Assembly (NCBI RefSeq): GCF_006345805.1
Contig: NC_043000.1
Coordinates: forward strand, 14,942,001 to 15,006,000
Length of the DNA stretch: 64,000 nt
From: Octopus sinensis
Lineage: Eukaryota
Reading direction: 5' to 3'
A program made the position numbers and the translations under genes. The notes beneath the pieces are model-generated. The model was not told the origin of the DNA. It did not search any database and worked only from the letters and a program-made list of their open reading frames with translations. This document shows, in pieces, positions 28,761-49,678 of this stretch (position 1 is its first letter; each line of letters starts with the position of its first letter).

Positions 28761-29261
28761 CTGCATGAAACAAATTATCCAGTTTTTAAAAAGATATACA
28801 AGTGACAATAAGCAATTATGAAGAACACAAATTTATAATTCATCACAAAATAAACTGGCATGTTAAACATTTGAATTCTAATTCTTTTGATCTTTTAACT
28901 GGTTACTCGTATGTGATGGAGAATTCAAGGGAGCTGAAATTTACTGAGGTGAAGTCTGCTGTAAGTTTGTGCCCTCTTTCCAGATGTTGCTAGACTTGTA
29001 TGGTTTGTTGTGCTATTTGAAGGTAAATGATGAGAAATGACATAATAGTCTAGAGATTTTCCTGAACAAATATCCAATGTTTACATTTAAAAATAAAAGT
29101 GAAATATAAAGCAAAAACTGCAAGGAAAGAAGAGAGAATAAAAACGAGACAAAATAAAGGGGAAAGAAAAAAATAGTAGTGTAAAGAAAGAAAAAGAAAA
29201 TAGTGAAATGGAGAGAATGAGAGAGAAGGAAGAATACAGAAATAGGAGTAAGATGACATAC

Positions 29262-29489
29262 TTCACAAAGATCTGTCTTCATACTTGTCACAGCAGCACT
29301 ATCAGTAGAAGAAAAAGAACCATGTCTTATGGCTTTTGACCGGTTGTGTAGATGACCAGCACTGACATCAGACAATGCATCCTCATCATCTACAGCTCTG
29401 TGTTCTTGTGGATGGAAAGATTGTGTGCAATATACAATTCTTGGGCCATGGAGTTCACAGAAGTGACACACAGCTATGATAGCATTCAT
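29262..29489 (-). CDS. FLCN: Folliculin coding exon 1
   Basis: MNAIIAVCHFCELHGPRIVYCTQ is the diagnostic FLCN N-terminus; acceptor at 29509-29510 leaves 19 nt of UTR; gtatgt donor; 228 nt. Confidence 0.96.
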
Positions 29490-30873
29490 TTTTATAATTT
29501 AAAAATATCTGGAATGAAAAATATATACAATGTTAGTAAAAAGAAAACTTTAAATATAAATCATTTCTGAATTAGAATCAAAGCTGCACTGGGACCATGA
29601 ATAGAGACCTCAAAGACATTCTCCAATAGGGGGATCTGCTAACCTCATCTTCTTCAATAACACAAAGACAAATTACCACATATATCAAGAAAACAATATT
29701 GTACCTAACCCTTCCTAAACCTAGATCAATGCAAATGCTAAGCCACACAATTACTGAAGATTTCCCCTGGAAACTGCACATCTTCAGCATAGCAAAGACT
29801 GGCCTTCCTATTCAGGGCCAGAAAACACTGCAGTCCCAACAACTCAAATAAACCCCACAATGAAGTACTTCTCCCACAGTGCAGCTGCTACACATTCAGA
29901 CATCCAAAACAGACCAGCCAACTAAGTGACATGAAATCACTCACTAACACATTCAACCTCTAGTCCATAATCATGCTGTATACACTCACTCCAGAGGCGC
30001 AATGACCTAATGGTTAGGGCAGCAGACTGGAGGCACAATGGCCCAATGGTCAGGGCAGCGGGCTTGTGTGTTTATTGAGTGGAAACACCTAAAGCTCCAC
30101 GAGGCTCGAGCAAGGGGGTGATGGTGACCCCTGTTGTACTCTTTCACTCCCACTCTCTCTTCCTGTTTCTTGAGTAATGCTGTGATGGACTGGCGTCCCA
30201 TCCAGCTGGGGGGAACACATACGCCACAGAAACCAGGAAACCGGGCCCATGAGCCTGGTTAGGCTTGAAAATGGCGCATAAATAAAACTAAATACACTCA
30301 CTCTACCGTTTCTACTGCTACAGTGGCCTCTGCTCCACATAGCTGGCTGGTCTTGTTCCACCCAACAACTCAGACACTTCCAACTTATGTCTTTCCTTGC
30401 CCCATCATCTATATTGCATTCAACCCACTTAGTCAAGCTGTTCTCCCCAGAATGTCAACCCTTTGAAATACTCTCTCTACCCATGTTTTTCCAGAAAACA
30501 TCAACTGGCAACTATAAGAACACTAACTGTGTAGATCTCACCAGTTTCAGAGGGTTTGCAAAAACAATGGGCACATCCCCTTCCTTTATACCTCCCACCC
30601 TAAAAAAATATGAGCTTATGTGCAAGCGTATGCAATAAGCGGAGAAACAAAACCATTGTTGAAGAGATGTAGTATTCATTACAGGCTTATTTTCTTGAGA
30701 TATGCCAAATGTGCAGTTTCATTCCACTTCAGTGCCAAGACCCTCACAGAACACTCTCAATGAGATAGCATATAACGGGGAGTAATTAAATTATGTGGAT
30801 GAAGCTTGTATGTGAAAAGAGAGGAAGGCATATAGGCTGGTGCTATCAATACAGGAGTATGTATAAGACATGT

Positions 30874-31258
30874 GGAGGCGCAATGACCCAGTGGTTAGGG
30901 CAGCGGACTCACGGTCGTAGGATCGTGGTTTCGATTCCCAGACCGGGCGTTGTGAGTGTTTATTGAGCGAAAACACCTAAAAAGCTCCACGAGGCTCCGG
31001 CAGGGGATGGTGGTGATCCCTGCTGTACTCTTTCACCACAACTTCCTCTCACTCTTACTTCCTGTTTCTGTTGTACCTGTATTTCAAGGGGCCGGCCTTG
31101 TCACTCTCTGTGTCACGCTGAATATCCCCGAGAACTACGTTAAGGGTGCACGTGTCTGTGGAGTGCTCAGCCACTTACACGTTAATTTCACGAGCAGGCT
31201 GTTCCGTTGATTCGGATCAACCAGAACCCTCATCGTCGTAACCGACGGAGTGCTTCCA
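30874..31258 (+). mobile_element. tRNA-derived SINE, tail type 1
   Basis: Near-identical to 8922-9296. Confidence 0.88.
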
Positions 31259-32919
31259 TCCATGTATACAACATAATATTAATATAGAATATGATGATAG
31301 AGACAACTTGAGCACTGAGATACTTCTGAGCATTCCACCAACATGCACACTACAATGGAACAATCAGACATGAGTCTTCTAAACCTAGTGATTAATGGCA
31401 AGTATAACCCATAAACTGGCAAATGTATCTAACATCCTGGAATGGTCAAAAGCTTTGCAACAAATAAACTTTTACCAAAATGCTCAAGAATAAAAGACAA
31501 CTGGCATGTAACATAGCACGGGCCTCCAATGTAGTTGACTGTGAATACTAAAAGAAACATAATGAATATAGTAATAAGGTGTTTGTTAACTAACACCATC
31601 ATCTAAGAAATACTGGAGGTGAGGGTGTTGGGCTAATAATTGACAGGATAAGAGATTACCTTTCTAAGGAGTAGGTCACAAAGATGCGTTTCTATATCTC
31701 AAGGTAAATACACTCAGAGAGAAATTGCGGAAGTTGGTGAAACCGGCAGTGGACAATTGCTGAGTAATTTTTCTTAGATATGGTTGGGTCTCACATATGC
31801 AAGACTAAAACTCAATCTATGAGTATTTTGTACGCAGAACGCTCCTTTGAGGTACTTCCTACGGCCATATTGTTTAATTTATTTACATCTGTCTAATTAG
31901 ATATATGGCATCTGAAGTTCCGTTTTCTGGAACAAGTCCAAATAACATTTTGTTCATTTTAACTCCCAACGTGTGCGTAACAGCAAAACTATCAAACACA
32001 ACTATAAAATAAGTAAAATTTAAGACTATTTTTGAGTTTTCAAAATCAGTTTAAAGATTTTCCATTTGTTTTGGGTTTCTCTATTTATTTATTTATTTTT
32101 TAATTAAGGTACAAATTCTATGTCAACATAAACTTAGTCGTTAATGTTTACTTTAGTACCCAACTAAAATTATTAAAAAGATCAATTCATTCTAGTCACG
32201 AAAACATCAATACAAATACAGATTAATTTATCGGAATATTACAATACACAACTTAAATAGAGTTTGAAGAATTCAAAACAATTTTATAACTTCATTATAG
32301 TGACGTTTTATTCCTTCTTAATTGTTGTTGTAAAAGTTATCTAATGTTTGTAATTAAATATTTAACAATGATCAGTGACACGGACATCAAACTATTATTT
32401 TCCTGCGATTCAATATTGTATATAATCTAACGCGAAGTAAATAAGTATGTACCACATGAGGTGGTTAAATCAAAGCAAATTAACAGAGAAGATAAATAAA
32501 CACACTATATAGATATATTTACAAAATAAAAAGATTTGGGAGAAAGGGAGTGCGTATTTATTTAATTAAAATACACTAAATGAGAATAAGAATAAAGTAA
32601 TTACCGATATTTTTTATTTATTAAGCTAAAAATATAAATATTTATCAGTAAAAATAATAGTGACAGGTAATCAAACAAACACGCTATCTCTATGTTCGAA
32701 ATAGATCATCTTATCAATCACATGAAGTGAATTATATGATGAAAGAAAACAACATGGTTATAGTAAACAATACAGCAAAGGCAAAAATGTCGGGAAAAGG
32801 AGTCTGGGGAGGGAAACGGAAACTAGACAAGCTTTGGGAGGAGATTCTTTAAAATAAAATTAATCCATGTATATACAGACCATCAAAAATTGAATGCACT
32901 TGTTGTATTTACAAAGCCA

Positions 32920-33232
32920 TGTTGGCTAGAACCAATTTAGATATCGGCCACATTCCCGTGATTAATGAACTGGTTGGCACACGATGAATCACGAGAAACA
33001 CTCCTTCCATTGCACAAGATATCGTAAAATGCCGAGTTTACTAGAAAGCAGGGCTTTTTTTGTTGATGTTTCCAACGCTATCTGTGATTGGTTGATATTA
33101 CCAACGTCAGCGTTAATGCTGACCAATTATTAACGTCGTTTCAAACGGTGAAATTATTGTATTTGCGTGGTTTTTAAAATGGTGTCTGCTAGTTAATAAA
33201 AGTTTTGTCGAAGTGACTACTACGACAGGTGA
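32920..33232. promoter_or_regulatory. Putative bidirectional promoter (FLCN on -, and a non-coding + transcript)
   Basis: CpG-enriched, repeat-free patch; CCAAT boxes at about 32932, 33087 and 33123; TTCAAA at 33140; AAAATGG at 33176; strong donor ag|gtgagg at about 33229; candidate FLCN 5'UTR donor at 32603-32604 (-). Confidence 0.5.
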
Positions 33233-33783
33233 GGGCGTAACATCGGTATATGTACCGGTGTTAGTACCGGATACATTTCAAGAAAGTGTTGTTGTTTTTT
33301 ATATATGGGGGGGGGGGGGTAGGGATAGGAGTGGGAGAAAAGGGTTTCTGTTATCTTCAGAAATGTAAACAAAGTCACGTGTGTACCTATACCGAAGCAT
33401 CGCCTTACAAATGTATTTCGTAGAAGGTTAAGAAATTATTTTCGGTCTGTGTTACTTATTCACTTTTCTTCGGACATTCTTTATCCTAGTTTCCATAGAA
33501 AACCATTCACTTTCTTATTAATGACTTAATTGCGTTTTCTAATGTGAATCCTATACTTTCACTTTCTTTTACATTATTTTCCTACATTTTTTTCTGCCAC
33601 TTTATTAGTATGTGCTATGGACTGAACCGTCGAGTCAAATCGGACAACTCTTGGCCTCCGTCAAACATCTGCGTACACTAAGTTTTCCTAGTCTATTAAA
33701 GAGCAGTCTATTTATTGTCATCCTCTGGGGTTCACTTTTTCCCCGTCATAAATCATTGGACTTGTTATCTATTTAAGCTAGAT

Positions 33784-34158
33784 GTGGAGGCGCAATGGCC
33801 CAGTGGTTAGGGCAGCGGACTCGCGGTTTCGATTCCCAGACCGGGCGTTGTGAGTGTTTATTGAGCGAAAACACCTAAAAAAGCTCAACGAGGCTCCAGC
33901 AGGGGATGGTGGTGATCCCTGCTGTACTCTTTCACCACTACTTTCTCTCACTCTTACTTCCTGTTTCTGTTGTACCTGTATTTCAAGGGGCCGGCCTTGT
34001 CACTTTCTGTGTCACGCTGAATATCCCCGAGAACTACGTTAAGGGTACACATGTCTGTGGAGTGCTCAGCCACTTACACGTTAATTTCACGAGCAGGCTG
34101 TTCCGTTGATTCGGATCAACCGGAACCCTCATCGTCGTAACCGACGGAGTGCTTCCAC
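33784..34158 (+). mobile_element. tRNA-derived SINE, tail type 1
   Basis: 11-bp TSD TTAAGCTAGAT. Confidence 0.88.
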
Positions 34159-34611
34159 TTAAGCTAGATAGGCTGGGCTGATTTGAAAGTTGTGAAAAAG
34201 TCACTCGCACAACAAATAACAAGGCATTAATTGCCGACCTCTCGATTGGATGTCTGATAAGCAATTTGTGTTCCCGCTCCATCCGATAGGTTTCTGCATA
34301 GTTTCCCATTTAACAAATTTCGCTCATAAGCTTTTGGTCAAAGTTCTGGGTTAGCTGTCCTAATGTCACGGGAAAGGAAAAGAGAATAGATGTTCCATAT
34401 TTTGAGAATTATTTTATATCGTTATTCAATATTTGCCTAAAAGCAAAAACCTGAAAAACCATGTTAACATTTTTATATAATATTGGTTTGAATTTTTCAT
34501 TTTCTTTTAAAAATCTGACTTTTGTAAACTAAATTACTTTATCAAAATAAAGCAAATAAATTTCTCCAGTGTTTTATGTTTATTTGGTGTTACACTGAAA
34601 ATTTATACTCT

Positions 34612-35174
34612 TGTAGTGACGCTATACAACAGCGCGCGCGCGCAACGCCCTTTTCTGATTCGCGCGTGTTTTCATCAACAGAAGAGGGAATATTGCTATC
34701 GTGGAATTAGCTGATTGGCTAGGAAAAGCGACCCTTAGAAAAGAGGCAAGGGAACGCAAAAACCTTGACCATCAGCGTCCAGTAGAGACAGCAGAGACAG
34801 CAGAAGGCCTTTGATACCAGCAGACGTATATTTTCTCTCTGTCCGAATTTGATAGCAGTCGGCTGAAGATTTTAACCAAATTGTTGCAGACAACATCGTC
34901 TTCATTATTTCGCGGCCATCTTTAACCCGTTCTGTTTTTAGCGGCTGAACATTGTAAATCTTACAAGCGATTAACTTTCAGCCTTGCGCGCCCAGAACCA
35001 AGGATATCAGATATACCACTGATTTCTCACCGGTATAAAACAATAAAGTATATCTATTTTTTACGTCTGCGTTTTGTGTTTCTTTGACTGGTAGAATCTG
35101 GATTTAAAAGCAACGGATAGTGATTGCTTCTCGCACCCCAAAAGGTCCAGAGAAGATATTCACATTTCCTTACA
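34612..35174 (+). repeat. 5' LTR (563 bp)
   Basis: Direct repeat of 39764-40335, starting tgtagtgacgc and ending ccttaca. Confidence 0.97.
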
Positions 35175-35175
35175 G

Positions 35176-35190
35176 TGGTGACCCCGAAGT
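35176..35190 (+). other. Primer-binding site complementary to the tRNA-Trp 3' end
   Basis: TGGTGACCCCGAAGT starts 1 nt after the LTR; the tRNA-Trp complement is TGGTGACCCCGACGT. Confidence 0.85.
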
Positions 35191-35625
35191 TCCAGAGAAC
35201 ACTCAACAAAAAAGAAAAAAAATCCAGTTTTTCTGCCAAGTCTGAAACACGACCAACCTGTTTTCCAGTCACTTTCAACAGTTTGTTTCTTCATCTGCAC
35301 TCACGCACGGAAGAAAAAAAAGAGAATAAATTTTTTTTTCTCGATTTAAACGCGACGAAGGTTGAAAAAAACAAAAAAAAAGAAAGAATTTTTTTCTATT
35401 CTCTGTGCACACAGTACAAACAAAAAAAACAAAAACAAAAGAAAAAAACATTTTTTTTTGTAAATTGCACATTCAAAATTTATTGGTTCAATTGTTGGTC
35501 TTTCTTTCTTTCTTTCTTCCTTTTTTTCCCTTTGTTTTTCCTTGTTGCGTCTGTTCAGCGTTGGTTCGTTGTCAGTTTTGTTTTTTCCATTTGACAGAGT
35601 CATCTAGTGAATAAAAGGCTACAAA

Positions 35626-36343
35626 ATGTTTATGGGTTCGTTACCTACTTTTACAGGTGATGCCACACTGTGGTTTTCACAGTTAGAGGCACAATTTCGT
35701 GCACAAAGTATTACTCCCGAGCAGCAGTTGCAAATCCTTTATGGTTGCATGCCGCCTCAACTGGCATCTATAGCAAGAGACCTTATCACAGACCCTAGTC
35801 CAGGCGCTACTTATGCGTCTGTTAAATTAGAGGTAGAGAAAAGAAATACACGAAGCGAGGAAAGTCGTTTCAACGAATTAATGGCAGATGAGCAACTGGG
35901 AGATAGGACTCCGTCAGAATTTTTACGAAGACTGAGGGAGTTAAGTGGTAATGCATCAGACGCCCCCCTCCTTCGGAAGATTTTTTTTCGAGGTTGCCCG
36001 CCTATATACAGACCGTTTTGGCAACCGGCTTAGAGACAAATACAGTGGACCAAATAGCAACGATGGCTGATAAGATGGTTGAATTTGCCGTTCAACCATC
36101 GTCACGGTCTGCTTGTGCCTGTTCACAAACTTCTTCGGCCTCAATTGAGGGGCTTTCTAAACTAATAGAAACCCTCACTAAAAGGATGGTCGCGATGGTA
36201 AGCGATCTTCAAAATCGCGGAGTCGCAGTCGTTCATCCTCGAGATCAACACAGTCTAAGTCTGGACTGTGTTGGTACCACTCCAAGTATGGAGAGAATGC
36301 ACATAGGTGCACACAGCCATGCACTTATAAGTCTTTAAACTAG
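35626..36343 (+). CDS. gag: Gag of the Gypsy element, split by two apparent 1-nt deletions
   Basis: LPTF...[10 protein letters not shown]...[16 protein letters not shown], then [10 protein letters not shown], then SRSRSRS and [18 protein letters not shown] (C-x2-H-x9-C-x3-C). Frame jumps at the T8 run 35981-35988 and the A4 run 36180-36183. Confidence 0.85.
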
Positions 36344-39300
36344 ATTCGGAGAATTTGAGCACGTCAACTTCCTCCACAACATTTTCTAGTTATCGTGCAT
36401 TCTTTGTTAAGGATCTAGTGTCGAAGAAAAACTTCATGGTGGACACTGGTTTTTGTTGCAGTATTTGGCCACTGCGTTGCACAACCGACAGGCCAAAACG
36501 ATCTAACGTCATCTTGCACGCTATTGACTCGTCACCAATAGCCACATTCGGTCAGATCTCGTTACGCCTTGATATTAATCTTCGTCGAGACTTTCAATGG
36601 GTTTTTGTCATTGCCGACATTCCGCATCCTATTTTAGGTGCGGATTTTCTGGATAAATTTGATTTGTTGGTAGATGTCAGATGTCGGAGGTTGGTCGATA
36701 GTTCGACTACACTCTCCACGCCGACCGGAGAATCTACCAATTTAGCTCTTAGCCCGACATTTTTTGTCGGTACATCTGGAGATGTTTTTCACTCTCTTTT
36801 AGCTTCTTTTCCAGAGCTATATGATGTTACCTTTAGGGTGGCTAAGCCATTGCATTCGACACGACACTTTATAACAACAACTGGACCTCCTGTTTTTTCA
36901 CGTCCAAGGCGTCTTGCACCTGATCGACTTAAAACTGCTAGGGCTGAGTTTGAGCATATGCTCCAGCTCGGTCTGATACGCCCCTCCACCAGTCCATGGG
37001 CATCTCCCCTTCATTTAGTAAGAAAAGGGGATACAGATTTTCGCCCGGTGGGAGATTATCGGCGTCTAAATTCGGTGACGATTCCGGACAAATATCCCAT
37101 AAGGATTTTAAACGATTTTTCGGCAAATTTACATGGCTGTACTATTTTTTCTAAGGTTGACCTCATACGTGCCTACCATCAAATACCGGTCAACTCAGAC
37201 GATATTCCTAAAACAGCAATTACTACTCCTTTTGGCTGTTTCGAATTTTTATTTATGAGTTTTGGTTTGAGGAATGCCACTAGTACTTTCCAACGGTTTA
37301 TAGATGAAGTTGTTCGCGGACTTGATTTTGTGTTCGCGTATGTCGATGATATTCTAATCGCAAGTGATACGCATGAAAATCATCTCCTGCACTTGTCTCA
37401 GCTTTTTCAGCGTCTTCGCGACTATGGTGTTCGCATTAATCCAGACAAGTGTGTTTTTGGGCAACCATCTCTTAATTTTCTCGGTCATTATATTGACTCG
37501 AGAGGAATCAAACCATTCTCATCCAAAGTCGATGCTATTCAGCGCATCGCACCACCTTCTTCTTTGCGTCAACTTCGCCATTTTTTAGGCATAGTAAATT
37601 TCTATAGACGTTTCATAGATCGGTGTGCAGACAAGTTGTTACCTTTAACACAGATGCTAAAGGGCAATTCCAAGAAGGACGCCCGTCTTGCTCTTTCGGC
37701 TGAAGCACTATCTGCCTTTAATTTAGTTAAAAAGGAAGTAGCTTCAGTCCCTATTTTGGCACATCCGGCTCCTAATGCTCCACTTACTTTATCTGTGGAC
37801 GCATCAGAGTCTGCAATTGGCGCTGTTTTGCAGCACACCGTAGAGGGTGAAGTTAAACCTTTAGCTTTCTTTTCTTGTCAGCTAAAGCCAGCTGAACGCA
37901 GATATAGTACTTTTGATCGAGAGTTACTAGCGATCTATCTGTCAGTTCGGCATTTTCAACACCAGCTCGAGGGACGAGAGTTTGTGATTTATACTGATCA
38001 CAAGCCCCTTACTTTTGCACTATCTTCTAAAACGGTTAAACTCTCTCCTCGTGCTTTCCGTCACCTGGACTATATTTCTCAATTTACAAGTGACATTAGG
38101 CATGTGCCAGGGACGGAGAACATCCCGGCTGATGCGCTCTCTAGACTCGCTGTCAATTCCATTTCCTCTCCTGCAGCAATTGATTTAACTGCTATTTCGC
38201 AGGACCAACAACCTTTAGAGGAGTTGGATTTAGCTTCACCTAGGTTTATTAACTGCAGGTTTGCCTACCTCCAGCTCCCTACAGCGGAAGGCTCTATTCT
38301 TTGTGACGTTTCTACCGGTTCACCTAGACCATTAGTACCTGAGAAACATCAACGTTCTGTGTTTGATGCTCTTCATTCACTGTCACATCCAGGTATCTCT
38401 GCCACAGTAAAGCTTGTTACCGCTCGGTTCTTCTGGCCCAATATGCGACGATCAATTACCTCTTGGGCACGCTCTTGTTTGAGGTGCCAGAGTGCTAAAG
38501 TCCATAGACACGTTCGTGCTCCACTTGGACAATTTTCCTCTCCTGAAGCCCGTTTTCGCCATATCCACCTTGATTTGGTTGGACCATGGCCTGTGAGTCG
38601 CGGGTTCTCATACATCTTAACTTGTATTGATCGTTTTTCACGCTGGCCGGAAGCTATTCCTATAGCAGACATTTCAGCTGAAACTGTTGCGAGGGCTTTC
38701 GTATCTAATTGGATTTCGAGGTATGGTGTACCGTACAGTTTAACCACAGATCGTGGTCGACAATTCGAGTCTGCATTGTTTCGTGAGTTATCACGAATCC
38801 TGGGGATGCATCATATACGCACCACAAGTTACCACCCCGCTTCTAATGGGATGGTGGAGCGTTTCCATAGGCAACTTAAGGCCGCTTTGCGTGCCTCGCC
38901 GAATCCACAGTCATGGACTGAATTTCTACCGATCGTCCTGCTTGGATGTCGGACTGCGATTAAAGCAGACCTTGGTTTTTCGTCTGCCGAGCTCTTGTAT
39001 GGTACCACACTGGCATTGCCTGGTACGATGTTGGTGCCAGACAAGTCACAGTCTCTTAATTTAGAGTCTTATGTTGCTCGATTACGCAGATATTTTTCTG
39101 CCCTTCCTCCTATGGACCCTCGACACCAAAATCCTCCTTCTAGTGTGCCATCAGACCTTAATTCTTGGACGCATGTTTTTATTCGTGATGATTCTGTCAA
39201 AGGACCTCTTGTTTCTCCTTATAAAGGACCTTTTCGTGTGATTTCTCGCACGCCGAAGGTATTCAAACTTGAAATTAACGGTCGTTCGGAGACCGTCTCC

Positions 39301-39546
39301 GTAGATCGTCTTAAAAGGGCATATTTTGAGGTGTCCACATCTTTTAATGACCCCACTGCCACAACCATCGTTGAACCTTCACATGCACCTTTGACAACAC
39401 CACTATTTACACATGCACCATTATCAACACCAACATCGACAACACCACCTTCGTCGTCGCAGCCTGCCTCGAACAGACCTTATGTTACGAGGTCAGGCAG
39501 AACTGTTCACTGGCCGAAAAAACTTTCCAAAACTATTTATATTTGA
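36334..39546 (+). CDS. pol: Pol polyprotein (protease, reverse transcriptase, RNase H, integrase)
   Basis: ORF 36355-39546 (1063 aa; frame open from 36331): VDTG protease, YVDD RT, DAS...ELLA...TDHKPL RNase H, HHCC plus DDE integrase, PYKGPF. Confidence 0.96.
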
Positions 39547-39763
39547 CATTTTCAATTGTCTTCCCAGTGACAGTTCAATACTCATTGAACCTTGCTCATT
39601 TTGAGTATTTTTTCTCTTTTTACCTTTTAGGTGAATTTTTTTTTTTTTTGTTTTGTTTTAATGTATTATATTGTGTGTTATTTTGGTTGTCTGGTATCCA
39701 CCTTGAGTTTTGCAGTCACTACAAGAAGTTTGCTTCGTGCATACGCACTTGTGGGGGAGCCTT

Positions 39764-40335
39764 TGTAGTGACGCTATACAACAGCGCGCGCGCGCAACGC
39801 CCTTTTCTGATTCGCGCGTGTTTTCATCAACAGAAGAGGGAATATTGCTATCGTGGAATTAGCTGATTGGCTAGGAAAAGCGACCCTTAGAAAAGAGGCA
39901 AGGGAACGCAAAAACCTTGACCATCAGCGTCCAGCAGAGACAGCAGAGACAGCAGAGACAGCAGAAGGCCTTTGATACCAGCAGACGTATATTTTCTCTC
40001 TGTCCGAGTTTGATAGCAGTCGGCTGAAGATTTTAACCAAATTGTTGCAGACAACATCGTCTTCATTATTTCGCGGCCATCTTTAACCCGTTCTGTTTTT
40101 AGCGGCTGAACATTGTAAATCTTACAAGCGATTAACTTTCAGCCTTGCGCGCCCAGAACCAAGGATATCAGATATACCACTGATTTCTCACCGGTATAAA
40201 ACAATAAAGTATATCTATTTTTTACGTCTGCGTTTTGTGTTTCTTTGACTGGTAGAATCTGGATTTAAAAGCAACGGATAGTGATTGCTTCTCGCACCCC
40301 AAAAGGTCCAGAGAAGATATTCACATTTCCTTACA
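39764..40335 (+). repeat. 3' LTR (572 bp)
   Basis: Differs from the 5' LTR by one extra 9-bp agcagagac unit and about two substitutions seen by eye. Confidence 0.97.
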
Positions 40336-42250
40336 CTCTTTACTCTTTTACTTGTTTCATTCATTTGACTGCGGCCACGCTGGAGCACCGCCTTTAGCCG
40401 AGCAAATCGACCCCAAGTCTTATTTTTTGTAAGCCTAGTACTTATTCTATCGGTCTCTTTTGCCGAACCGCTAAGTTATGGGGACGTAAACACACCAGCA
40501 TCGGTTGTCAAGCGATGTTGGGGGGACAACTAGAGACACACAAGCACACACATATACGACGGGCTTCTTTCACTTTCCGTCTACCAAATCCACTCACAAG
40601 GCTTTGGTCGGCCCGAGGCTATAGTAGAAGACACTTGCCCAAGGTACCACGCAGTGGGACTGAACCCGGAACCATGTGATTGGTAAGCAAGCTACTTACC
40701 ACACAGCCACTCCTGCGCTTATGTTTGTATATTTTTAAATGCGTCATTAAGTTTGTGTGATTCGAGGAGAAGAGTGTATATTTACCATTTCAACCTTACA
40801 TTCCTTTAACCGTTATAATGATGTTGTGTTTACTCATAATACTTGTGTGGACTGAGTCACTTAGTTAAGTGTTTTGGACATGAGATATAGACCATCAGCT
40901 GGTTCAACAAAACAATATTGACTCTGAGGCTGTGACTCTATATACATCTAACATTAGTTTCATATAAATACATATCGTCATTTAACGTTTGTTGTCCATG
41001 CTGGCATGGGTTGGACAGTGTGACCCAGAGCTGGCAAGCTGGGGAGCTACACCAGAACCCAGTCTGATTTGGCATGGTTTCTACAGCTGGATGCCCTTCC
41101 TAATGCCAACCACTTTACAGATGGTGCTGGGTGCTTTTATATGGCACTGCACGGGCACTTTTACATGGCTCTTCCACAAATGCTTTACACCACTAGAAGA
41201 ATTAGTCTTCATACTTCTGCTGTAGGGTATGAGTCTTCTTGAGTATGGCCAGGTGCCAGGTATCTTGGTCCTTTGTCATCTTGCCTGAAAGGTTCGGCTT
41301 CCTGAAGTTATTCTTCAGTACTTCATCCCGTGTCTTCCTGGGTCTCCCACTTTTACGTGTTCCATCATCATCATCGTTTAACATCCACTTTCCATGCTAG
41401 CATGGGTTGGACAATTTTGACTGAGGGCTGGCGAACCAGATGGCTGCACCAGGCTCCAATCTGATCTGGCAGAGTTTCTGCAGCTGGATGCCCTTCCTAA
41501 CACCAACAACTCCGAGAGTGTAGTGGGTGCTTTTATGTGCCACCAGCACAAGGGCCGGTCAGGCGGTACTGGCAACGGCCACGCTCAAATGGTGCTTTTT
41601 TGTGCCACCTGCACATGAGCCAGTCCAGTGGCACTGGCAACAACCTTGCGCGAATGTTTTTTCATGTGCCACCAGCACAAGTACCAGTTTGAGAAATCAG
41701 CACTTCTTTATTGAGCTATCCACAACTCACCATATTTTAGCTAGAACACAGTGATATATTGAAATAAATCAACTTTATTGCCTTCTGGCAATAGCCAACC
41801 CATACTTGAAGTATTTTGCTATGAGATATTTGGTATATTAAAACTAAAACTACAGGAAAACACAAAATAAGTTTGTCTGACAAATAGTATTATTTAGTAA
41901 AATTATGAAAATTATAGAATGCTATAATGTTAATGTGACATATTCACTTATGTATAAGTTGTGATTTTTTTTTTTGCTGACAACTTCAATGAAAAAATTC
42001 AGGGATGCAAGAAATTACATCATGTGGATTATAAAAGCTTTGTGTCAATTTTTCTGGCCAAAGTATGGAGTGTTATGATGCACAATAACTACAGATGAAT
42101 GCAGGTATTGAAGTTGAGAGACTGACTAATTGACTGGCGTTTAGCTGCTGAGAGACATCATATCTGATGAACTAGCTTACTGGTACTTGTACACAAATTG
42201 AAATTTTACAGAATAACAAGACATTGATATTAACCCTGATTGTGTATATT

Positions 42251-42578
42251 GTGAGGGCGCGTGGCTTAGTGGTTAGGGCATTCGGCTTATGATCGTAAGG
42301 TTGTGAGTTCGATTCCCGGCGACGCGTTGTGTCCTTGAGCAAGACACTTTATTTCACGTTGCTCCAGTCCACTCAGCTGGCAAAAATGAGTTGTACTTGT
42401 ATTTCAAAGGGTCAGCCTTGTCACTCTCTGTGTCACGCTGATTATCCCCGAGAACTACGTTAAGGGTACACGTGTCTGTGGAATGCTCAGCCATTTGCAC
42501 GTTAATTCCACGAGTAAGCTGTTCCGTTGATCGTATCAGCTGGGACCCTCGTCGTCGTAACTGGCGGAGTCTTTGAGA
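42251..42578 (+). mobile_element. tRNA-derived SINE with a different head and tail type 1
   Basis: 11-bp TSD ATTGTGTATAT; shares the 3' half with 8922-9296. Confidence 0.8.
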
Positions 42579-44412
42579 ATTGTGTATATAGAGAGCTTTC
42601 ACATCATATTAATGTTGTATATGATGGTGGAGAGAGAGCACTGCGTAAATGATAGTGCCGGGTGAAAGGTAGTGTTCCTTTTTGACTCCACGTGTGTTGT
42701 GCTTAAAAACGTGTTTATATTCTTGGATGTGATAAAGTGTAGAATTAGATTAATTATTATCCTGCTTCCAGCTTCAGTGTTACTACCAGGATCTGAAAAA
42801 TAGGGCACATCTCCCCCACTTATTTTGTGATTTAGGGGGGATTTTTGAAAAACAAGGGGGAATTTGCAGTGATGTTTGGTGAACAAATTAAGCACACTAT
42901 CTGACAGTGGTTAAAATGCAAACCAATCAAGTTTATGTATAAATGTTCTTTTTATATATTTGTTTCCTTTTACACAATATTAAAACAATGGCTAAGAATT
43001 TTCTGAAGCAGTACTCCCACTAATTTTATCTACGAGCTACCAATGCTTATATATGGAGTTAGACCTCCCCAATAATTAATTATAGTGACCTCATTATCAG
43101 AGCTAGTTTTTTTTTAATGACATGTTAGGTAACACCATCATTTTAAGGCGGCGAGCTGGCAGAAATGTTAGTGCGCCAGGCGAAATGCTTAGCGGTATTT
43201 CGTCTGCCGCTATGTTCTGAGTTCAAATTCCGCTGAGGTCGACTTTGCCTTTCATCCTTTCGGGGTCAATAAATTAAGTACCAGTTACGCACTGGGGTCG
43301 ATCTAATCGACTTAATACCTATGTCTGTCCTTGTTTGTCCCCTCTATGTTTAGCCCCTTGTAGGTAATAAAGAAATAGGTATTTCGTCTGCCGCTATGTT
43401 CTGCGTTCAAATTCTGCTGAGGTCGACTTTGCCTTTCATCCTATTGGGGTCGATAAATTAAGTACCAGTTACGCACTGGGGTCGATGTAATCGACTTAAT
43501 CCATTTGTCCTTGTTTAGCCCCTTGTGGGTAGTAAAGAAATAGGTAATCCCAGCATGGTTTCTCCTGCAAACATGGAGGCTATGGATATGGTGCAAGGAA
43601 TGAAAAGAGGATAAAGGTTCTTTGAATTTTGTGATGTAAATGACACAAACATTTGCAACACTAACTTCAGGAAAGCAACTAGTGATCTGACCAGGCAAAC
43701 ATGCAAGCCAAATTGACTCACCAGGATACAGGATAAACAGATAATTGTGAATTAAGATTTTTTTTACTGGTGAAGAATCATCATCATCATCATTTAACGT
43801 CCGCTTTCCATGCTAGCATGGGTTAGACGATTTGACTGAGGTCTGGCGAAAAAGACTCCAATCTGATCTGGCAGAGTTTCTACAGCTGGATGCCCTTCCT
43901 AACACCAACCACTCCGAGAGTATAGTCAGTCTGAGAGTGTAGGACCACACTCAATTTAGACTATTGAATAAAACAAACAGCTGAACCCAGAGACACAAGA
44001 CAATTCAGAGAAAGAAAATGTGAAAGTTAAAAAATCCCTTTCAAGTGATAAAACATTTCAAGAGTGAGAAAAGACACAAACCTATAACATAGAGGACAAC
44101 TAGAAATTTATTATAGACCACTTGCTGTGAGCTGTAAACCAGATTTATGGTTGAAACAAGGTTCTAACCAAATCAAAAGAGATATGGTGTTGGAATGGTA
44201 GAGAAAACGGAGCTATTAAAGGCTAAAAGGCTTAGAATGACTGGAAGTGGGACATAGGAAACAATATTAAGTAGCAAGAAGTGAACTACATAAACATTGT
44301 AGCATAGAGAGAAGCTGAAAGTGAGAGGCTTGCCAAGATTCTGTTACAAGAGATTCAAAAGCATGAGTTGTTCTGGCGATCTTTCGTTTTAACTCGAAAT
44401 AATGTAAACATT

Positions 44413-44837
44413 ATTAAATCTCAGAATGAGATTGAAACAGTAATCACTCGATAATGTAAAGTATAGAAGCCATCTTATCATGGCTAACCACATTGGGGAG
44501 GGGGTGTTACTGTAGCTTTATAGCCCCAAGAGATCGTCGTCTCTAGCTGGCTTTAGACACAATATCAGTGCCCTTGGAGTATTTGCAAAGGGAGGCCATC
44601 CCTTCCTCGCAAGCCTGAGTGATACGCTCGAACTAGTTTCGGGATTTTTGTCCCTTGTCAACGGGCGGTAACCACCAGGTCGCGATGAAAGTGAAGGCTG
44701 CTTTGCAAATATATAAGTTTTTCTAGTGGCGTCTGCCACTGATTTCGAAAAACTGACAGTAAGCATAATTAAATCTCAGAATGAGATTGAAACAGTAATC
44801 GCTCGATAATGTAAAGTATAGAAGCCATCTTATCATG
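44413..44837 (-). mobile_element. Hammerhead-containing retrozyme or Penelope-pLTR-like element (355-nt monomer plus 70-nt redundancy)
   Basis: 44413-44482 is repeated at 44768-44837; flanking ATGTAAACATT duplication (44402-44412 and 44835-44845); internal hammerhead motif. Confidence 0.75.
44623..44670 (-). ncRNA. Minimal type I hammerhead ribozyme, U3-A8 variant
   Basis: Minus strand: TACCGCCCG-TTGACAA-GGGA caaaaa TCCC-GAAA-CTAG-TT-CGAGCGTA. Stems I and II pair, and the stem III region is the palindrome ACTAGT. Confidence 0.7.
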
Positions 44838-44846
44838 TAAACATTG

Positions 44847-45203
44847 AATTCGGTCATTTCCGTGACCACATGTTGTCTTGTCAGTTGGGAAGAGAAAGCT
44901 AACGGGTTGTGCATGCTTGTTACTCTGTGTGTGTGTGTGTGTGTGCTTATTTTTGTTTGTGTGCGTGCTTGTTCTTGTTTGTGCATGTGTGTGCCTGTTT
45001 GTTCCTGTGTGTTATTTCTACATTCCACAACATATAAATACAAAAAAAAACAGAACAGACACATATATACACAGAAGAACAAGCACGCACACACACACAC
45101 ACATATGCACGCACAAACAAGCACGTACACACGTACACAGGAACAAGCACGCACGCGCAACTGACAATTGACAAGACAACATGTGGTCACGGAAATGACC
45201 GAT
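44847..45203. repeat. MITE with ~40-bp TIRs and inverted TG/CA microsatellite interior
   Basis: tcggtcatttccgtgaccacatgttgtcttgtca and tgacaagacaacatgtggtcacggaaatgaccga; CATTG on both flanks. Confidence 0.75.
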
Positions 45204-46767
45204 TCATTGTGGCTTTATTGAGAAAATTCTATAGTTTGTAAGATATTTGTTGTTGTTTTTTCTTCAATTTCTGCAATTTCAACCAATCAATGACGTCTAT
45301 TGAGGTGAAAACATTCTGTGCCGTATGAATATGTCCCTCGTTTAAGAAACAGATTGGGATTATTTACATTTCTGAAGAAAAAAAGATACCCTTCCCCCCA
45401 CCCCTAACCCTAACTCTAACCCTAACCCTATAATAGATTGAAATGCAATAGATCGATACTAGGGTCATAATTATGAGTGACAATTTCATATGACACCGCT
45501 AGAAAAAACTGCCGTTCAAACCGAAAAGATCCTAAAATGTTTGTATGCTAGTAAGAAAGTGAATTTTGTGAAATAATACAAAATGGTAAGAGCATCTTAC
45601 CAATCTACAGTTATTGCATTCTGTCAACAAGATGGCATGATTTTTTTGTAAGAAAGTTTCACGTTTGTGAGAGTGAGTCATCCAGCTTCCCACCAGCCAA
45701 AAAAAATTTTTTTCAAATTTTGGTACAAAGCCAGCAATTTTAGGGAAGGGACAAGTTGATTGCATTGGTCCCAGTACTAGACTGGCAATTTATTTAGCGA
45801 CCCCAAAAGGGTGAAAGGCAAAGTTGACCTCGGCAGTATTTGAAGTTATCATCATCGTTTAACATCCGCTTTCCATGCTAGCATGGGTTGGACGATTTGA
45901 CCGAGGACTGGCAAACCAGATGGCTGTGCCAGGCCCCAGTCTGATCTGGCAGAGTATCTACAGCTGGATGCCCTTCCTAACGCCAACCACTCCGAGAGTG
46001 TAGTGGGTGCTTCTACATGCCACCGACACAAGGGCCAGTCTGGTGGTACTGGCAATGGTCACGCTCGAAATGGTGTTTTTTTCGTGCCACCTGCACAGGA
46101 GTCAGTCCAGCAGCACTGGCAACGACCTCGCTCGAATGTTTTGTTCACGTGCCACCAGCAGGGAAGCCAGACAGCTGCTCTGGCAGTGATCCCGCTCGAA
46201 TGGAGTTGTTAGCGCTCCACTGGCATGGGTGCCAGTCATCGAATTTGGTTCAATTTCGATTTCACTTGCCCCAACAGGTCTTCGTAAGAAGAGTTTAGTG
46301 TCCAATGAAGGGAGGTTGGCATGGGTGCCAGTCGTTGAATTTGGTTCGATTTCGATTGCCTCAACAGGTCTTCGCAAGCAGAGTTTTGTGTCCAAAGAAG
46401 GAAAGGTATGCATCTGGATGGGGGGCAGCATTATGTCCGACGTGTTAAGAATTACACCTATTCGCCGCCTTAACCCCCAGATAATAAATACTATTTATTT
46501 ATTTATGTTTATTCTGCTCGAGTCAGGCTTTATGAAACGTTAAAAGAATGATTTTGGTATTACACAAGTTTAAAAAAGAAAAAAATACGAAACTATAAAA
46601 GAAACACGTTTTGAATTTACAGAAAAAAAAAACTACGCTTGAGAAAAGTTAAGAAAGGAGTTTAATTAATTGAGAACCGGGTGAACCGATGAATCATTTG
46701 TAATATCTCTATGGCGCAACTTATCGTCTGTTGTTATCGAAGCAGACAAGTTTTTTTATATTTTATA

Positions 46768-47020
46768 TATTTCTTTACTACCCACAAGGGGCTAAACACA
46801 GAGGGGACAGACAAAGGGATTAAGTCGACTACATCGACCCCAGTGCGTAACTGGTACTTAATTTATCGACCCCGAAAGGATGAAAGGTAAAGTCGGCCTC
46901 GGCGGAATTTGAACTCGGAACGTAACGACAGACGAAATACGGCTACGAAATAAAGAAATTTAGACGAAATACGGCTACGAATTTCGCCCGGCGTGCTAAC
47001 GTTTCTACCAGCTCCCCGCC
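46768..47020 (-). mobile_element. SINE family C inserted in the CCP110 promoter
   Basis: 12-bp TSD TTATATTTTATA; further copies at 5357-5577, 10420-10620, 20478-20703, 43145-43545 (partial dimer), 53234-53470, 60726-60940. Confidence 0.85.
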
Positions 47021-47039
47021 TTATATTTTATAACACATG

Positions 47040-47140
47040 TTTTCATTGGATAACACTGTAAACATTAGCATAGTGATGACCAATTATAGAAAGCATTTCA
47101 GCATAAATTCGGTGAATCTCCGGAATGTTTCAAAATGGCG
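47040..47140 (+). promoter_or_regulatory. Putative CCP110 promoter
   Basis: ATTGG (47045) and CCAAT (47080) about 35 bp apart; TTCAAA (reverse CHR-like) at 47129; AAAATGGCG YY1-like motif over the ATG. Confidence 0.5.
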
Positions 47141-47178
47141 CTTGCTGGACAACCTAACTTGACTGATGCAGAAGAAAT
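47135..47178 (+). CDS. CCP110: Centriolar coiled-coil protein 110, probable first coding exon
   Basis: caaaATGGCG context; MALAGQPNLTDAEE; gttcgt donor in phase 2 joins in frame to the exon at 51763; CCAAT boxes just upstream. Confidence 0.65.
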
Positions 47179-47754
47179 GTTCGTTGAACCTTTGTTTAAT
47201 TATCTTGTTTCCCTTTAAACTTCCTGTGATAACTAACACGAATAATACTCGTCTTAGTATAGTGAGATTTGTGTTAACGATTACTAATCCTCATGTAACT
47301 AAGTTGTTTTCGTTCGTTTAATCATATCCAAACATGTTTTTGTGTGTTTTTTTTTAAATAATTTATCCTTTCATTTACATGTTTTGTTTTTCTTTGTTGT
47401 AGTTTTGCTAAAGAGAGAAATTCTATTAGTATTTGTACTATATCTATTCCGTGGTTAGTCTGTAGAAACTTTTCTGTAGCTAAAAAGTTAAAATCTAGGA
47501 CACTTCCCTTCTCGCGTGTATACTAAGGAGGGACCTTAGGAAGCTTCTTAGTATGAGAGTGGTAGTCCTAACTATTCATACCAAGGAAGCTTCTTAGTGT
47601 GAGAGTGATAGTTCTAACTATTCAGGCTTAGCAGTTTTTAAATCGCAAATTCCCAGGATGGCTCGAAACTTTACACTAACAGTTGCTGAGTCGACAAAAT
47701 GTTCTGAATACAAATCGTAAAATTAGTGCAAAATAAAAAGGAAATAGTCAGAAA

Positions 47755-49678
47755 TCGGTTAATATAGGGCGTAACAAATATCAGAAAATCAAAAAAAAAT
47801 GTGTGTAATAGGTGTAAAACAACTTCCTATGAACGAATATGAAAAAAAAAATTCGCGCACGCGAAAGGGGGGTGGGGGAGAGGCCTCGGAAAATTCACAT
47901 CGGGAAGTTCCGAAAGCGTCTGAGGGGCTGACCCGGGCACCAAAACAAAAAAAAAATATGTAATATGTGTAAAAACTTGCTCTAAACGAACTTGCTCTAA
48001 CGAATATGACAAAAAAATGCGCTCTCGAGAAAGAGGGGTGGGGGAGAGGCCTCGGAATATTTATATCGGGAATTTCCGAAAGCGTCTGAACCGGGCACAA
48101 AAACAAAACAGCGTAATAGGTGTAAAACAACTTGCTCTAAACGACTATCATGAAAAAAATGCGCGCTCGCGAAAGGGGGGTGGGGGAGAGGCTTCGGAAA
48201 TTTCACATCTTCAGTCCACGGCCTTTAAACTAAGAAAAAATATGTAATTGGTGTAAAACTACTTGTTCTAAACGAGTATCAAGAACACACACTCACACAT
48301 GAATCATAAACTCCGTATTTCGCAAAAAAAAAATAAATAAAGAGAAGAAATTCTGGAAAAAGTGAAGAAATGTTGGATCTCCGCCATGTGAATCAAAATA
48401 CGTGTCAGAAACATCTTGAAATACTACAGAAATTATGTTACGAAAATGATAATGTATACATACCTCTTTGAGTGGTCCATCGATAATGATGATAAAGAAA
48501 TGAGTTGGATTTGAACTCAGAATATTGACTAACACAACTACATACTACAAGACTCAAAATATTCAGCCAAGTCACCACCCTTTAACTAGCAATAATAATA
48601 ACATCAATAACATAACAGCCAAAAGATTTATTTGTTCTGAAAATAACAATCATAGTAAATAAATGTTCTTTAATATTCACATTCATGTGCACAGTTAAAC
48701 ACACTTACATACAAACAGTCATGCATGCATAATACAGAACGGACACATAAATGAAGGATGCATTACTAAGTATATATTACATCTAGAGAATTTTGATTAA
48801 TAAGTCAAATATGCAAATTATAAAGATAATTAATTGCTTTACTAAACTGTTGTAAAGGTGAAAAAATAAATTTGGAAAAAAATACACGCCAAAACTAATT
48901 AATAAAGGATAATTAGGGAAGGATTGACACAAAATAATAATTTTTTCTGTCTCTTTTTTTCTGATAAATGCATCTTAATAAGTGAGAAGAATTGCATATA
49001 TCTGAACTATTTCAAAGAAAAGCATAAATTTAATGTTTAAAATAGCTTTAACCAAGGAATGAGATCCAACATTTCTTCACTTTTTCCAGAATTTCTTCTC
49101 TTTATTTATTTTTTTTGCGAAATACGGAGTTTATGATTCATGTGTGAGTGTGTGTTCTTGATACTCGTTTAGAACAAGTAGTTTTACACCAATTACACTA
49201 TTTTTTCTTAGTTTAAAGGCCGTGGACTGAAGATGTGAAATTTCCGAAGCCTCTCCCCCACCCCCCTTTCGCGAGCGCGCATTTTTTTTCATGATAGTCG
49301 TTTAGAGCAAGTTGTTTTACACCTATTACGCTGTTTTTGTTTTTGTGCCCGGTTCAGACGCTTTCGGAAATTCCCGATATAAATATTCCGAGGCCTCCCC
49401 CACCCCTCTTTCTCGAGAGCGCATTTTTTTTGTCATATTCGTTTAGAGCAAGTTGTTTTACACATATTACACTATTTTTTTTTTTGTTTTGGTGCCCGGG
49501 TCAGCTCCTCAGACGCTTTCGGAACTTCCCGATGTGAATTTTCCGAGGCCTCTCCCCCACCCCCCTTTCGCGTGCGCGAATTTTTTTTTTCATATTCGTT
49601 CATAGGAAGTTGTTTTACACCTATTACACACATTTTTTTTTTGATTTTCTGATATTTGTTACGCCCTATATTAACCGA
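47755..49678. mobile_element. Foldback-type DNA element with ~625-bp terminal inverted repeats
   Basis: 47755-48381 is the reverse complement of 49062-49678; each arm holds about three ~150-bp subrepeats; AT-rich non-coding core; flanked by AGAAA/AGAAA. Confidence 0.88.

What the first reader, a model, noticed from the sequence alone, without database searches (positions are those of the whole stretch)
32955..33232. Old duplicate of the CCP110 promoter and exon 1 at the likely FLCN promoter
Seen: 32955-33200 is colinear with 46660-47150 once the SINE at 46768-47020 is removed. Shared blocks in order: cgatgaatca; c.at.gc.caa..tatcgt; aagcag..ttttttt; attgg; aac.t.agc.t; tgaccaattat; tttca; cggtgaa; aaaatggtgtctgctag versus aaaatggcgcttgctgg. 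In the left copy the ATG frame stops at once (ATG GTG TCT GCT AGT TAA), but a strong donor (ag|gtgagg) follows. Inference: FLCN and CCP110 once shared one bidirectional promoter that duplicated, separating the genes by about 14 kb and possibly creating a new + strand non-coding transcript or an alternative CCP110 leader.
Basis: partly seen in the sequence, partly recalled or inferred. Interest (0 to 1): 0.75.

Follow-up and report, generated by a model that had tools for sequence, protein, structure and literature searches.

The report
Duplicated FLCN-CCP110 promoter in octopus
Two neighbouring octopus genes that point away from each other, folliculin (FLCN) and the centriole gene CCP110, start in related 300-base stretches 14 kb apart, likely the two copies of a once-shared promoter that duplicated, as is known for human BRCA1 and NBR1.

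Summary
The similarity is real. Window 32897-33204 aligns with 46605-47160 once the SINE is removed: 64% identity, score about 200 against at most 128 in shuffles, 400 kb of flank and motif-matched sites. A related octopus lacks the SINE exactly there, and its version fits the left copy better (253). The left copy overlaps FLCN's untranslated first exon (spliced 32881 to 29508 in 3 of 3 RNA-like runs); the right copy carries the CCP110 start codon. Consecutive accession numbers on shared contigs suggest the genes are also neighbours in O. vulgaris, Argonauta, Sepia and amphioxus. Best reading (0.7): an old tandem duplication of a bidirectional promoter left each gene its own copy plus a relic of the partner's first exon. 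The single-copy ancestral state was not seen. The mechanism is known from primate BRCA1/NBR1, so this is a new, much more diverged case of a known kind. The suggested plus-strand transcript or alternative CCP110 leader has no real support: the donor abuts a MITE and the relative's alignment stops before it. Two look-ups in the scan's earlier notes found no such case.

The parts
29261..29508 (-). FLCN exon 2, first coding exon (ATG at 29489)
   Evidence: tblastn of P0313; contig pieces 29261-29508 in X10, X13, X14
29509..32880 (-). FLCN intron 1 (3372 bases, GT-AG on the minus strand)
   Evidence: joint 29508-32881 in 3 of 3 RNA-like runs, not listed for DNA run X17
32881..33148 (-). FLCN untranslated exon 1; contigs end at 33001, 33022 and 33148, so the start site is not fixed
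   Evidence: table 8
32897..33204 (+). Left copy of the duplicated unit: FLCN exon 1 and its likely promoter, ending in a relic of CCP110 exon 1; CpG observed/expected 1.24 against 0.52 for the window
33087..33130 (.). Two CCAAT boxes in opposite orientation (ATTGG 33087, TGACCAATTAT 33120); NF-Y binding is inferred from recalled consensus
   Evidence: sequence
33179..33196 (+). Relic of the CCP110 start: ATG then five codons to a stop (MVSAS)
   Evidence: aligned to 47135
33229..33234 (+). Donor-like word GTGAGG; use not shown; its last base belongs to the MITE
33234..33404 (.). MITE with 17-bp terminal inverted repeats, high-copy family (1153 candidates); no target duplication here
34612..40335 (+). 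Ty3/gypsy-type LTR retrotransposon in the spacer, LTRs nearly identical, so much younger than the duplication
46605..46754 (+). Right copy, upstream half: homologous to FLCN exon 1 (relic, or CCP110 upstream promoter)
   Evidence: 1 substitution and 1 insertion against organism E in 46687-46754
46755..47020 (.). SINE plus one target-duplication copy; absent in organism E
   Evidence: X17 contig 17 runs from 46754 straight to 47021; flanking repeat
47021..47160 (+). Right copy, downstream half: CCP110 proximal promoter with the two CCAAT boxes (47045, 47077) and the start of exon 1
   Evidence: no listed difference from organism E in 47021-47091
47135..47178 (+). CCP110 coding exon 1 (MALAGQPNLTDAEE), donor at 47179
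   Evidence: N-terminus of P0001, P0006-P0008; covered by a contig in run X10

Best explanation
FLCN's untranslated first exon and CCP110's first coding exon lie in two related 300-base stretches 14 kb apart in the same orientation, likely because a bidirectional promoter once shared by the two genes was tandemly duplicated, so that each gene would now be driven by its own copy. Shown: homology of the copies, FLCN exon 1 inside the left copy, the CCP110 start in the right copy, both copies present in a related octopus. Inferred: laid on one unit, the FLCN exon-1 donor and the CCP110 ATG fall 298 bases apart and face away from each other across two opposed CCAAT boxes, which is the layout of a bidirectional promoter. 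After duplication the left copy kept FLCN and a dead CCP110 start, the right copy kept CCP110 and a dead FLCN exon, the rest of the duplicated DNA decayed, and transposons widened the gap. The likely effect is that the two genes can now be regulated separately; the motif core stayed alignable because both copies remained working promoters.
For: Independent check: organism E lacks the SINE, and its reading of the right copy scores 253 against the left copy, filling a gap with letters that match it. FLCN exon 1 spliced from 32881 in 3 of 3 RNA-like runs of three studies. CCP110 N-terminus encoded at 47135. Right-copy core conserved against organism E: 2 listed changes in 136 bases against 37 in 549, Fisher p 0.013. 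CpG-rich in both copies. Paired motifs are nearly private: 3 and 6 exact sites genome-wide, two of each being these copies, the others not alignable. FLCN and CCP110 have accessions 1-2 apart on the same contig in 4 of 12 other species with both accessions seen: O. vulgaris, Argonauta hians, Sepia pharaonis, Branchiostoma lanceolatum. The same route is documented for BRCA1/NBR1.
Against: The single-copy ancestral state was not seen: accession numbers give neither orientation nor distance, and 8 of 12 species are not shown adjacent (O. bimaculoides 10 apart; 4 others on one contig but 266-1253 apart; 3 on different contigs). No further duplicated DNA was found: the best of 200 spacer-versus-intron comparisons (score 140) is matched by 46 of 1920 background tiles, so the breakpoints are unknown. 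With the shared words scored as zero the remainder is at chance level (59 against 65; 753 of 1000 shuffles as good), and one word-keeping shuffle reached 198 against 199. Extrapolated to the whole genome the score alone would be marginal (expected 0.1-40 tiles, my arithmetic); the significance rests on proximity and order. The stretch 32112-33220 is not better conserved in organism E (80 substitutions in about 1110 bases) than FLCN intron 1 (89 in 1761). The FLCN donor position aligns only weakly in the right copy. Promoter activity and its direction were not measured.
Confidence: 0.7

Rival explanations
1. Promoter capture: the genes were neighbours with separate promoters; a copy of CCP110's promoter and exon 1 landed upstream and FLCN adopted its antisense side as a new first exon (or the reverse), losing its old promoter.
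For: Gives the same present-day picture. The left ATG context resembles the octopod-type CCP110 start (MALA/MALG), which differs from the Sepia start. No duplicated intron DNA flanks the copies.
Against: Needs an extra replacement event. The homology runs from just inside the FLCN exon-1 donor to just past the CCP110 ATG, the span expected of a shared promoter. Long-lived adjacency is typical of co-regulated 5'-5' pairs (PMC3514665, passages).
Confidence: 0.15
2. Both copies descend from an old dispersed transposon that inserted twice and was domesticated as promoter DNA.
For: The spacer is 75% repeats; genome DNA searches are too insensitive to find even the sister copy.
Against: No third copy in paired-motif searches of the whole genome, in 32 motif-matched loci or in 609 kb searched with a two-copy profile (best other hit E 1.5). 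The homology includes the CCP110 coding start.
Confidence: 0.07
3. Convergent promoter grammar or chance: two housekeeping promoters share CCAAT boxes, a TGAATCA word and an AAAATGG start context without common descent.
For: Signal vanishes when the shared words are zero-scored; the double-CCAAT pattern has 122 sites genome-wide against 98 for the reversed control.
Against: Keeping only the CCAAT boxes, or those plus TGAATCA and the start context, gives shuffle maxima of 125-169 against 199-253. FLCN's promoter has no reason to share CCP110's start-codon context. The relative's sequence fits better without having been used to choose the blocks.
Confidence: 0.05

Closest known systems
Primate BRCA1/NBR2 plus BRCA1P1/NBR1 duplicated bidirectional promoter (bioRxiv 10.1101/2025.11.08.687349, passages read; PMC1382208, passages; PMC8268747, passages)
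   Same: Head-to-head unrelated genes, tandem direct duplication of the shared promoter with the 5' ends of both genes, one intact gene and one relic per copy, a retroelement inserted afterwards.
   Different: There the copies are kilobases long and over 80% alike and the relic side gives a long non-coding RNA (NBR2); here only about 300 bases at 64% remain, no relic transcript is shown, and the unduplicated state was not seen directly.
Conserved ancestral microsyntenic pairs and their proposed release by duplication with reciprocal loss (Irimia et al. 2012, PMC3514665; passages and Discussion read)
   Same: The Discussion proposes that co-regulated pairs separate when each gene is lost from one duplicate while both keep the common cis-elements; FLCN-CCP110 appears adjacent in amphioxus and cephalopods.
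   Different: Here the genes are still neighbours 14 kb apart. FLCN and CP110 are not named in the main text; the supplementary pair list could not be read and may contain them.

Membership tests
Tandemly duplicated bidirectional promoter (BRCA1/NBR1 type) | Two homologous copies in direct orientation between divergently oriented genes | tested here: met
Tandemly duplicated bidirectional promoter (BRCA1/NBR1 type) | Each copy holds the working 5' end of one gene | tested here: met
   FLCN exon 1 in the left copy; CCP110 coding start in the right copy
Tandemly duplicated bidirectional promoter (BRCA1/NBR1 type) | Each copy holds a relic of the partner's 5' end | tested here: met
   dead ATG at 33179; 46605-46754 aligns to FLCN exon 1, donor position only weakly
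Tandemly duplicated bidirectional promoter (BRCA1/NBR1 type) | Outgroup with one copy shared head-to-head | tested here: inconclusive
   accessions 1-2 apart on one contig in 4 of 12 species; orientation and spacing not readable
Tandemly duplicated bidirectional promoter (BRCA1/NBR1 type) | Copies still fire in both directions, giving relic transcripts | tested here: inconclusive
   only unstranded contigs, with truncated lists
Tandemly duplicated bidirectional promoter (BRCA1/NBR1 type) | Measured bidirectional promoter activity | not testable with these tools
   needs CAGE or reporters
Dispersed repeat (transposon family) | Many copies elsewhere in the genome | tested here: not met
   sensitivity to old copies is limited
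Conserved ancestral microsyntenic pair (Irimia 2012) | Close linkage of unrelated genes in four or more major metazoan lineages | tested here: inconclusive
   indicated in two lineages (cephalopods, amphioxus); others not sampled

The most novel reading that the evidence does not exclude
FLCN-CCP110 is a bilaterian-old head-to-head pair of cilium/centrosome-linked genes that octopuses uncoupled by promoter duplication, and the left copy still fires on the plus strand to give a CCP110-derived non-coding RNA (an invertebrate counterpart of BRCA1P1/NBR2) that could act on FLCN or CCP110.
Probability: 0.15. Interest if true: 0.7.

Novelty: new member of a known kind. Interest (0 to 1): 0.47.

Why it matters
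How long-lived head-to-head gene pairs escape from a shared promoter has a proposed route and one well-described primate example. This would be an independent, far more diverged invertebrate case (about 0.48 substitutions per site between the copies, 7-9 times the distance to the related octopus) in which both descendant promoters are mapped. The two paralogous 300-base promoters form a natural experiment on how a two-way promoter specialises to one direction. It also points to an FLCN-CCP110 linkage shared by cephalopods and amphioxus that my searches did not find in print (listings only).

Tried and rejected
Genome DNA searches with either copy returned only the query itself: too insensitive to say the unit is rare. 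No RNA holder was listed as on record; the runs used are guessed or unlabelled and are treated as RNA only because they hold a GT-AG joint. Plus-strand transcript: no joint or loose end at 33228 among the 15 joints and 24 loose ends shown (166 and 1586 not shown), so this is no test. One contig of X10 covers 33368-33760 unspliced at depth 11.5, in 1 of 3 runs, strand unknown: a weak hint at most. No cover of 46630-46725 or 47046-47109 in 3 RNA-like runs, and CCP110 exon 1 covered in only 1 of 3: absence proves nothing. Further relics of the duplication in the spacer: 200 comparisons, best hit at background level. Third site of the TGACCAATTAT-CGGTGAA pattern (L005) and four other CGATGAATCA-TATCGT sites: no alignment. 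Rfam on 32000-48000: 0 matches. MITE as cause of the duplication: rejected, it is 84-92% like its family over its length and so younger than the copies. A whole-genome profile search for old copies remains undone. RefSeq XP order as a synteny proxy: unreliable, the window's own adjacent pair is 259 numbers apart. Literature searches for duplicated bidirectional promoters in general gave 0, 1, 10 and 0 listed papers, none a precedent by title or abstract start; the BRCA1/NBR1 case came from recall and was then confirmed. PMC4820839 and PMC13508932 (passages) added nothing specific. Earlier-findings look-ups gave no matching case.

Full report
Setting. The window is octopus DNA (G000:C4:14942001-15006000). 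CCP110 lies on the plus strand: its exons match P0001, which the sources name as an Octopus sinensis centriolar coiled-coil protein of 110 kDa, and it carries Pfam PF16025; its first 14 codons start at 47135. FLCN lies on the minus strand, with nine coding stretches from 29489 to 14334.

Observation. With the SINE cut out, 32897-33204 aligns to 46605-47160 at 182 of 284 columns. Under strict gap costs the score is 186-222 against shuffles of 82-84 +/- 9-10; under blastn-like scoring it is invisible, which fits the genome searches returning only the query. In 400 kb of flanking DNA the best of 2560 tiles scored 118 and 123 against 207. nhmmer finds each copy from the other at E 7e-5 and 1e-5 in the window. 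Extrapolated to the whole genome the score would be marginal (0.1-40 expected tiles, my arithmetic), so proximity and block order carry the significance.

Descent or shared motif grammar. Thirty-two other loci chosen for holding the same paired motifs score at most 96, 128 and 119 against the left, right and outgroup versions (these are 28 of the 120 other double-CCAAT sites and all 4 other sites). Against this, scoring the words as zero leaves nothing above chance (59 against 65). The best independent check came from a related octopus (organism E, run X17, about 6% diverged): one contig runs from 46754 straight to 47021, so the SINE is a later insertion, and its letters raise the score against the left copy from 199 to 253, filling a gap with matching bases. 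At 25 columns where the two right copies differ, the left copy sides with organism E 12 times and with this genome 8 times, which alone is not significant. The CGGTGAA block is changed in organism E and may be coincidental.

What the copies are today. In 3 of 3 RNA-like runs from three studies one contig joins 29508 to 32881 across a GT-AG intron of the minus strand; the DNA run shows no such joint. The contigs end at 33001, 33022 and 33148. The left copy is therefore FLCN's untranslated exon 1 and, by inference, its promoter. The right copy holds the CCP110 start; a contig of X10 covers about 47130-47178 (read from bin depths). Its core (46687-47088 without the SINE) has 2 listed changes against organism E in 136 bases, against 37 in the other 549 (p 0.013). 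For the left copy only a total was available, 80 substitutions over 32112-33220, which is no better than FLCN intron 1. Both copies are CpG-rich (1.2 against 0.52). Laid on one unit, the FLCN donor and the CCP110 ATG are 298 bases apart and point away from each other across two opposed CCAAT boxes; reading these as NF-Y sites rests on recalled consensus.

Outgroups. Among 12 other species for which both accessions were seen, FLCN and CCP110 are 1-2 numbers apart on the same contig in four: O. vulgaris (CAI9722087/CAI9722086), Argonauta hians (GAB1598237/GAB1598238), Sepia pharaonis (CAE1237481/CAE1237483) and Branchiostoma lanceolatum (CAH1273163/CAH1273164-5). O. bimaculoides has them 10 apart on one chromosome; Haliotis asinina, Gigantopelta, Biomphalaria glabrata and Pinctada have them on one contig 266-1253 apart; Lymnaea, Babylonia and Biomphalaria pfeifferi on different contigs. 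RefSeq order is not positional (the window's own pair is 259 apart), so the Haliotis and Gigantopelta rows say little. Orientation and spacing were not readable, so the shared ancestral promoter remains an inference.

The spacer and the donor. Of 13,371 bases between the copies 75% are repeats, including a 5.7-kb LTR retrotransposon whose LTRs differ at 2 of 563 aligned bases. No other duplicated DNA survives detectably. The donor-like GTGAGG ends on the first base of a MITE at 33234-33404; 8 of 14 other copies have an exact 8-bp target duplication and this one has none, so the junction was probably rearranged after insertion. Organism E's contig stops aligning at 33220 with 101 letters left over, so the donor is not shown conserved. 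The four O. sinensis isoforms seen, and the O. vulgaris protein, begin with the exon at 47135. A leader from the left copy would carry a five-codon reading frame, and the next in-frame Met (78) lies inside the PF16025 match at 54-112. An alternative leader is therefore unlikely (about 0.05); some plus-strand transcription from the FLCN promoter is not excluded.

Mechanism and age. Most likely a tandem duplication spanning the shared promoter and both first exons, followed by reciprocal decay: left copy FLCN plus dead CCP110 start, right copy CCP110 plus dead FLCN exon. The copies differ by about 0.48 substitutions per site, 7-9 times the 0.05-0.06 between this genome and organism E, and both exist in organism E, so the event is much older than that split. 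The relic ATG context resembles the octopod-type N-terminus rather than the Sepia type, a weak hint that it happened on the octopod line.

Known or new. The route was proposed by Irimia et al. 2012 (PMC3514665; passages and Discussion) and is documented for catarrhine BRCA1/NBR1, where the tandemly duplicated bidirectional promoter now drives BRCA1 with NBR2 and NBR1 with BRCA1P1 (bioRxiv 10.1101/2025.11.08.687349 and PMC1382208, passages; PMC8268747, passages). Searches for folliculin with CP110 and for FLCN with CCP110 listed 9 and 3 papers, none about linkage by title or abstract start; PMC13508932 does not name the genes in its main text; the supplement of PMC3514665 could not be read and may list the pair. 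The link of both genes to cilia is from recall and from review titles, not from text I read. Verdict: observation confirmed, interpretation partly supported, new member of a known kind, interest 0.47.

Noticed in passing
window 34612-40335: Ty3/gypsy-type LTR retrotransposon with a 1070-codon open pol frame (RT, RNase H, integrase), LTRs 561 of 563 aligned bases identical and a 4-bp target duplication: a recent insertion between the two promoters.
   Followed up: partly
window 33234-33404: MITE of a family with 17-bp terminal inverted repeats and 8-bp target duplications (hAT-like by recalled rule); this copy lacks the duplication, suggesting a flanking rearrangement. A related piece lies at 45360-45412.
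   Followed up: partly
window 32881-33148 (-) and 29490-29508 (-): The longest FLCN 5' UTR seen (287 bases) has four upstream ATGs, none in frame with FLCN: three share a frame ending in exon 1 (33, 14 and 3 codons) and one runs out of frame over the start codon.
   Followed up: no
window 47179-47184: CCP110 exon 1 uses a weak donor (GTTCGT; GTACGT in organism E).
   Followed up: no
L068-L073 (G000:C4:78.7-79.1 Mb): Six near-identical 41-base sites with three CCAAT-type boxes, on both strands within 330 kb: possibly the promoters of a local gene family.
   Followed up: no
window 33368-33760: An unspliced contig at depth 11.5 in run X10 only, beyond the FLCN 5' end; could be divergent transcription or DNA.
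   Followed up: partly
P0314, P0315: Argonauta folliculin is listed under two accessions on two contigs; the Sepia model has a 47-residue N-terminal extension absent from all other folliculins viewed, probably an annotation artefact.
   Followed up: no
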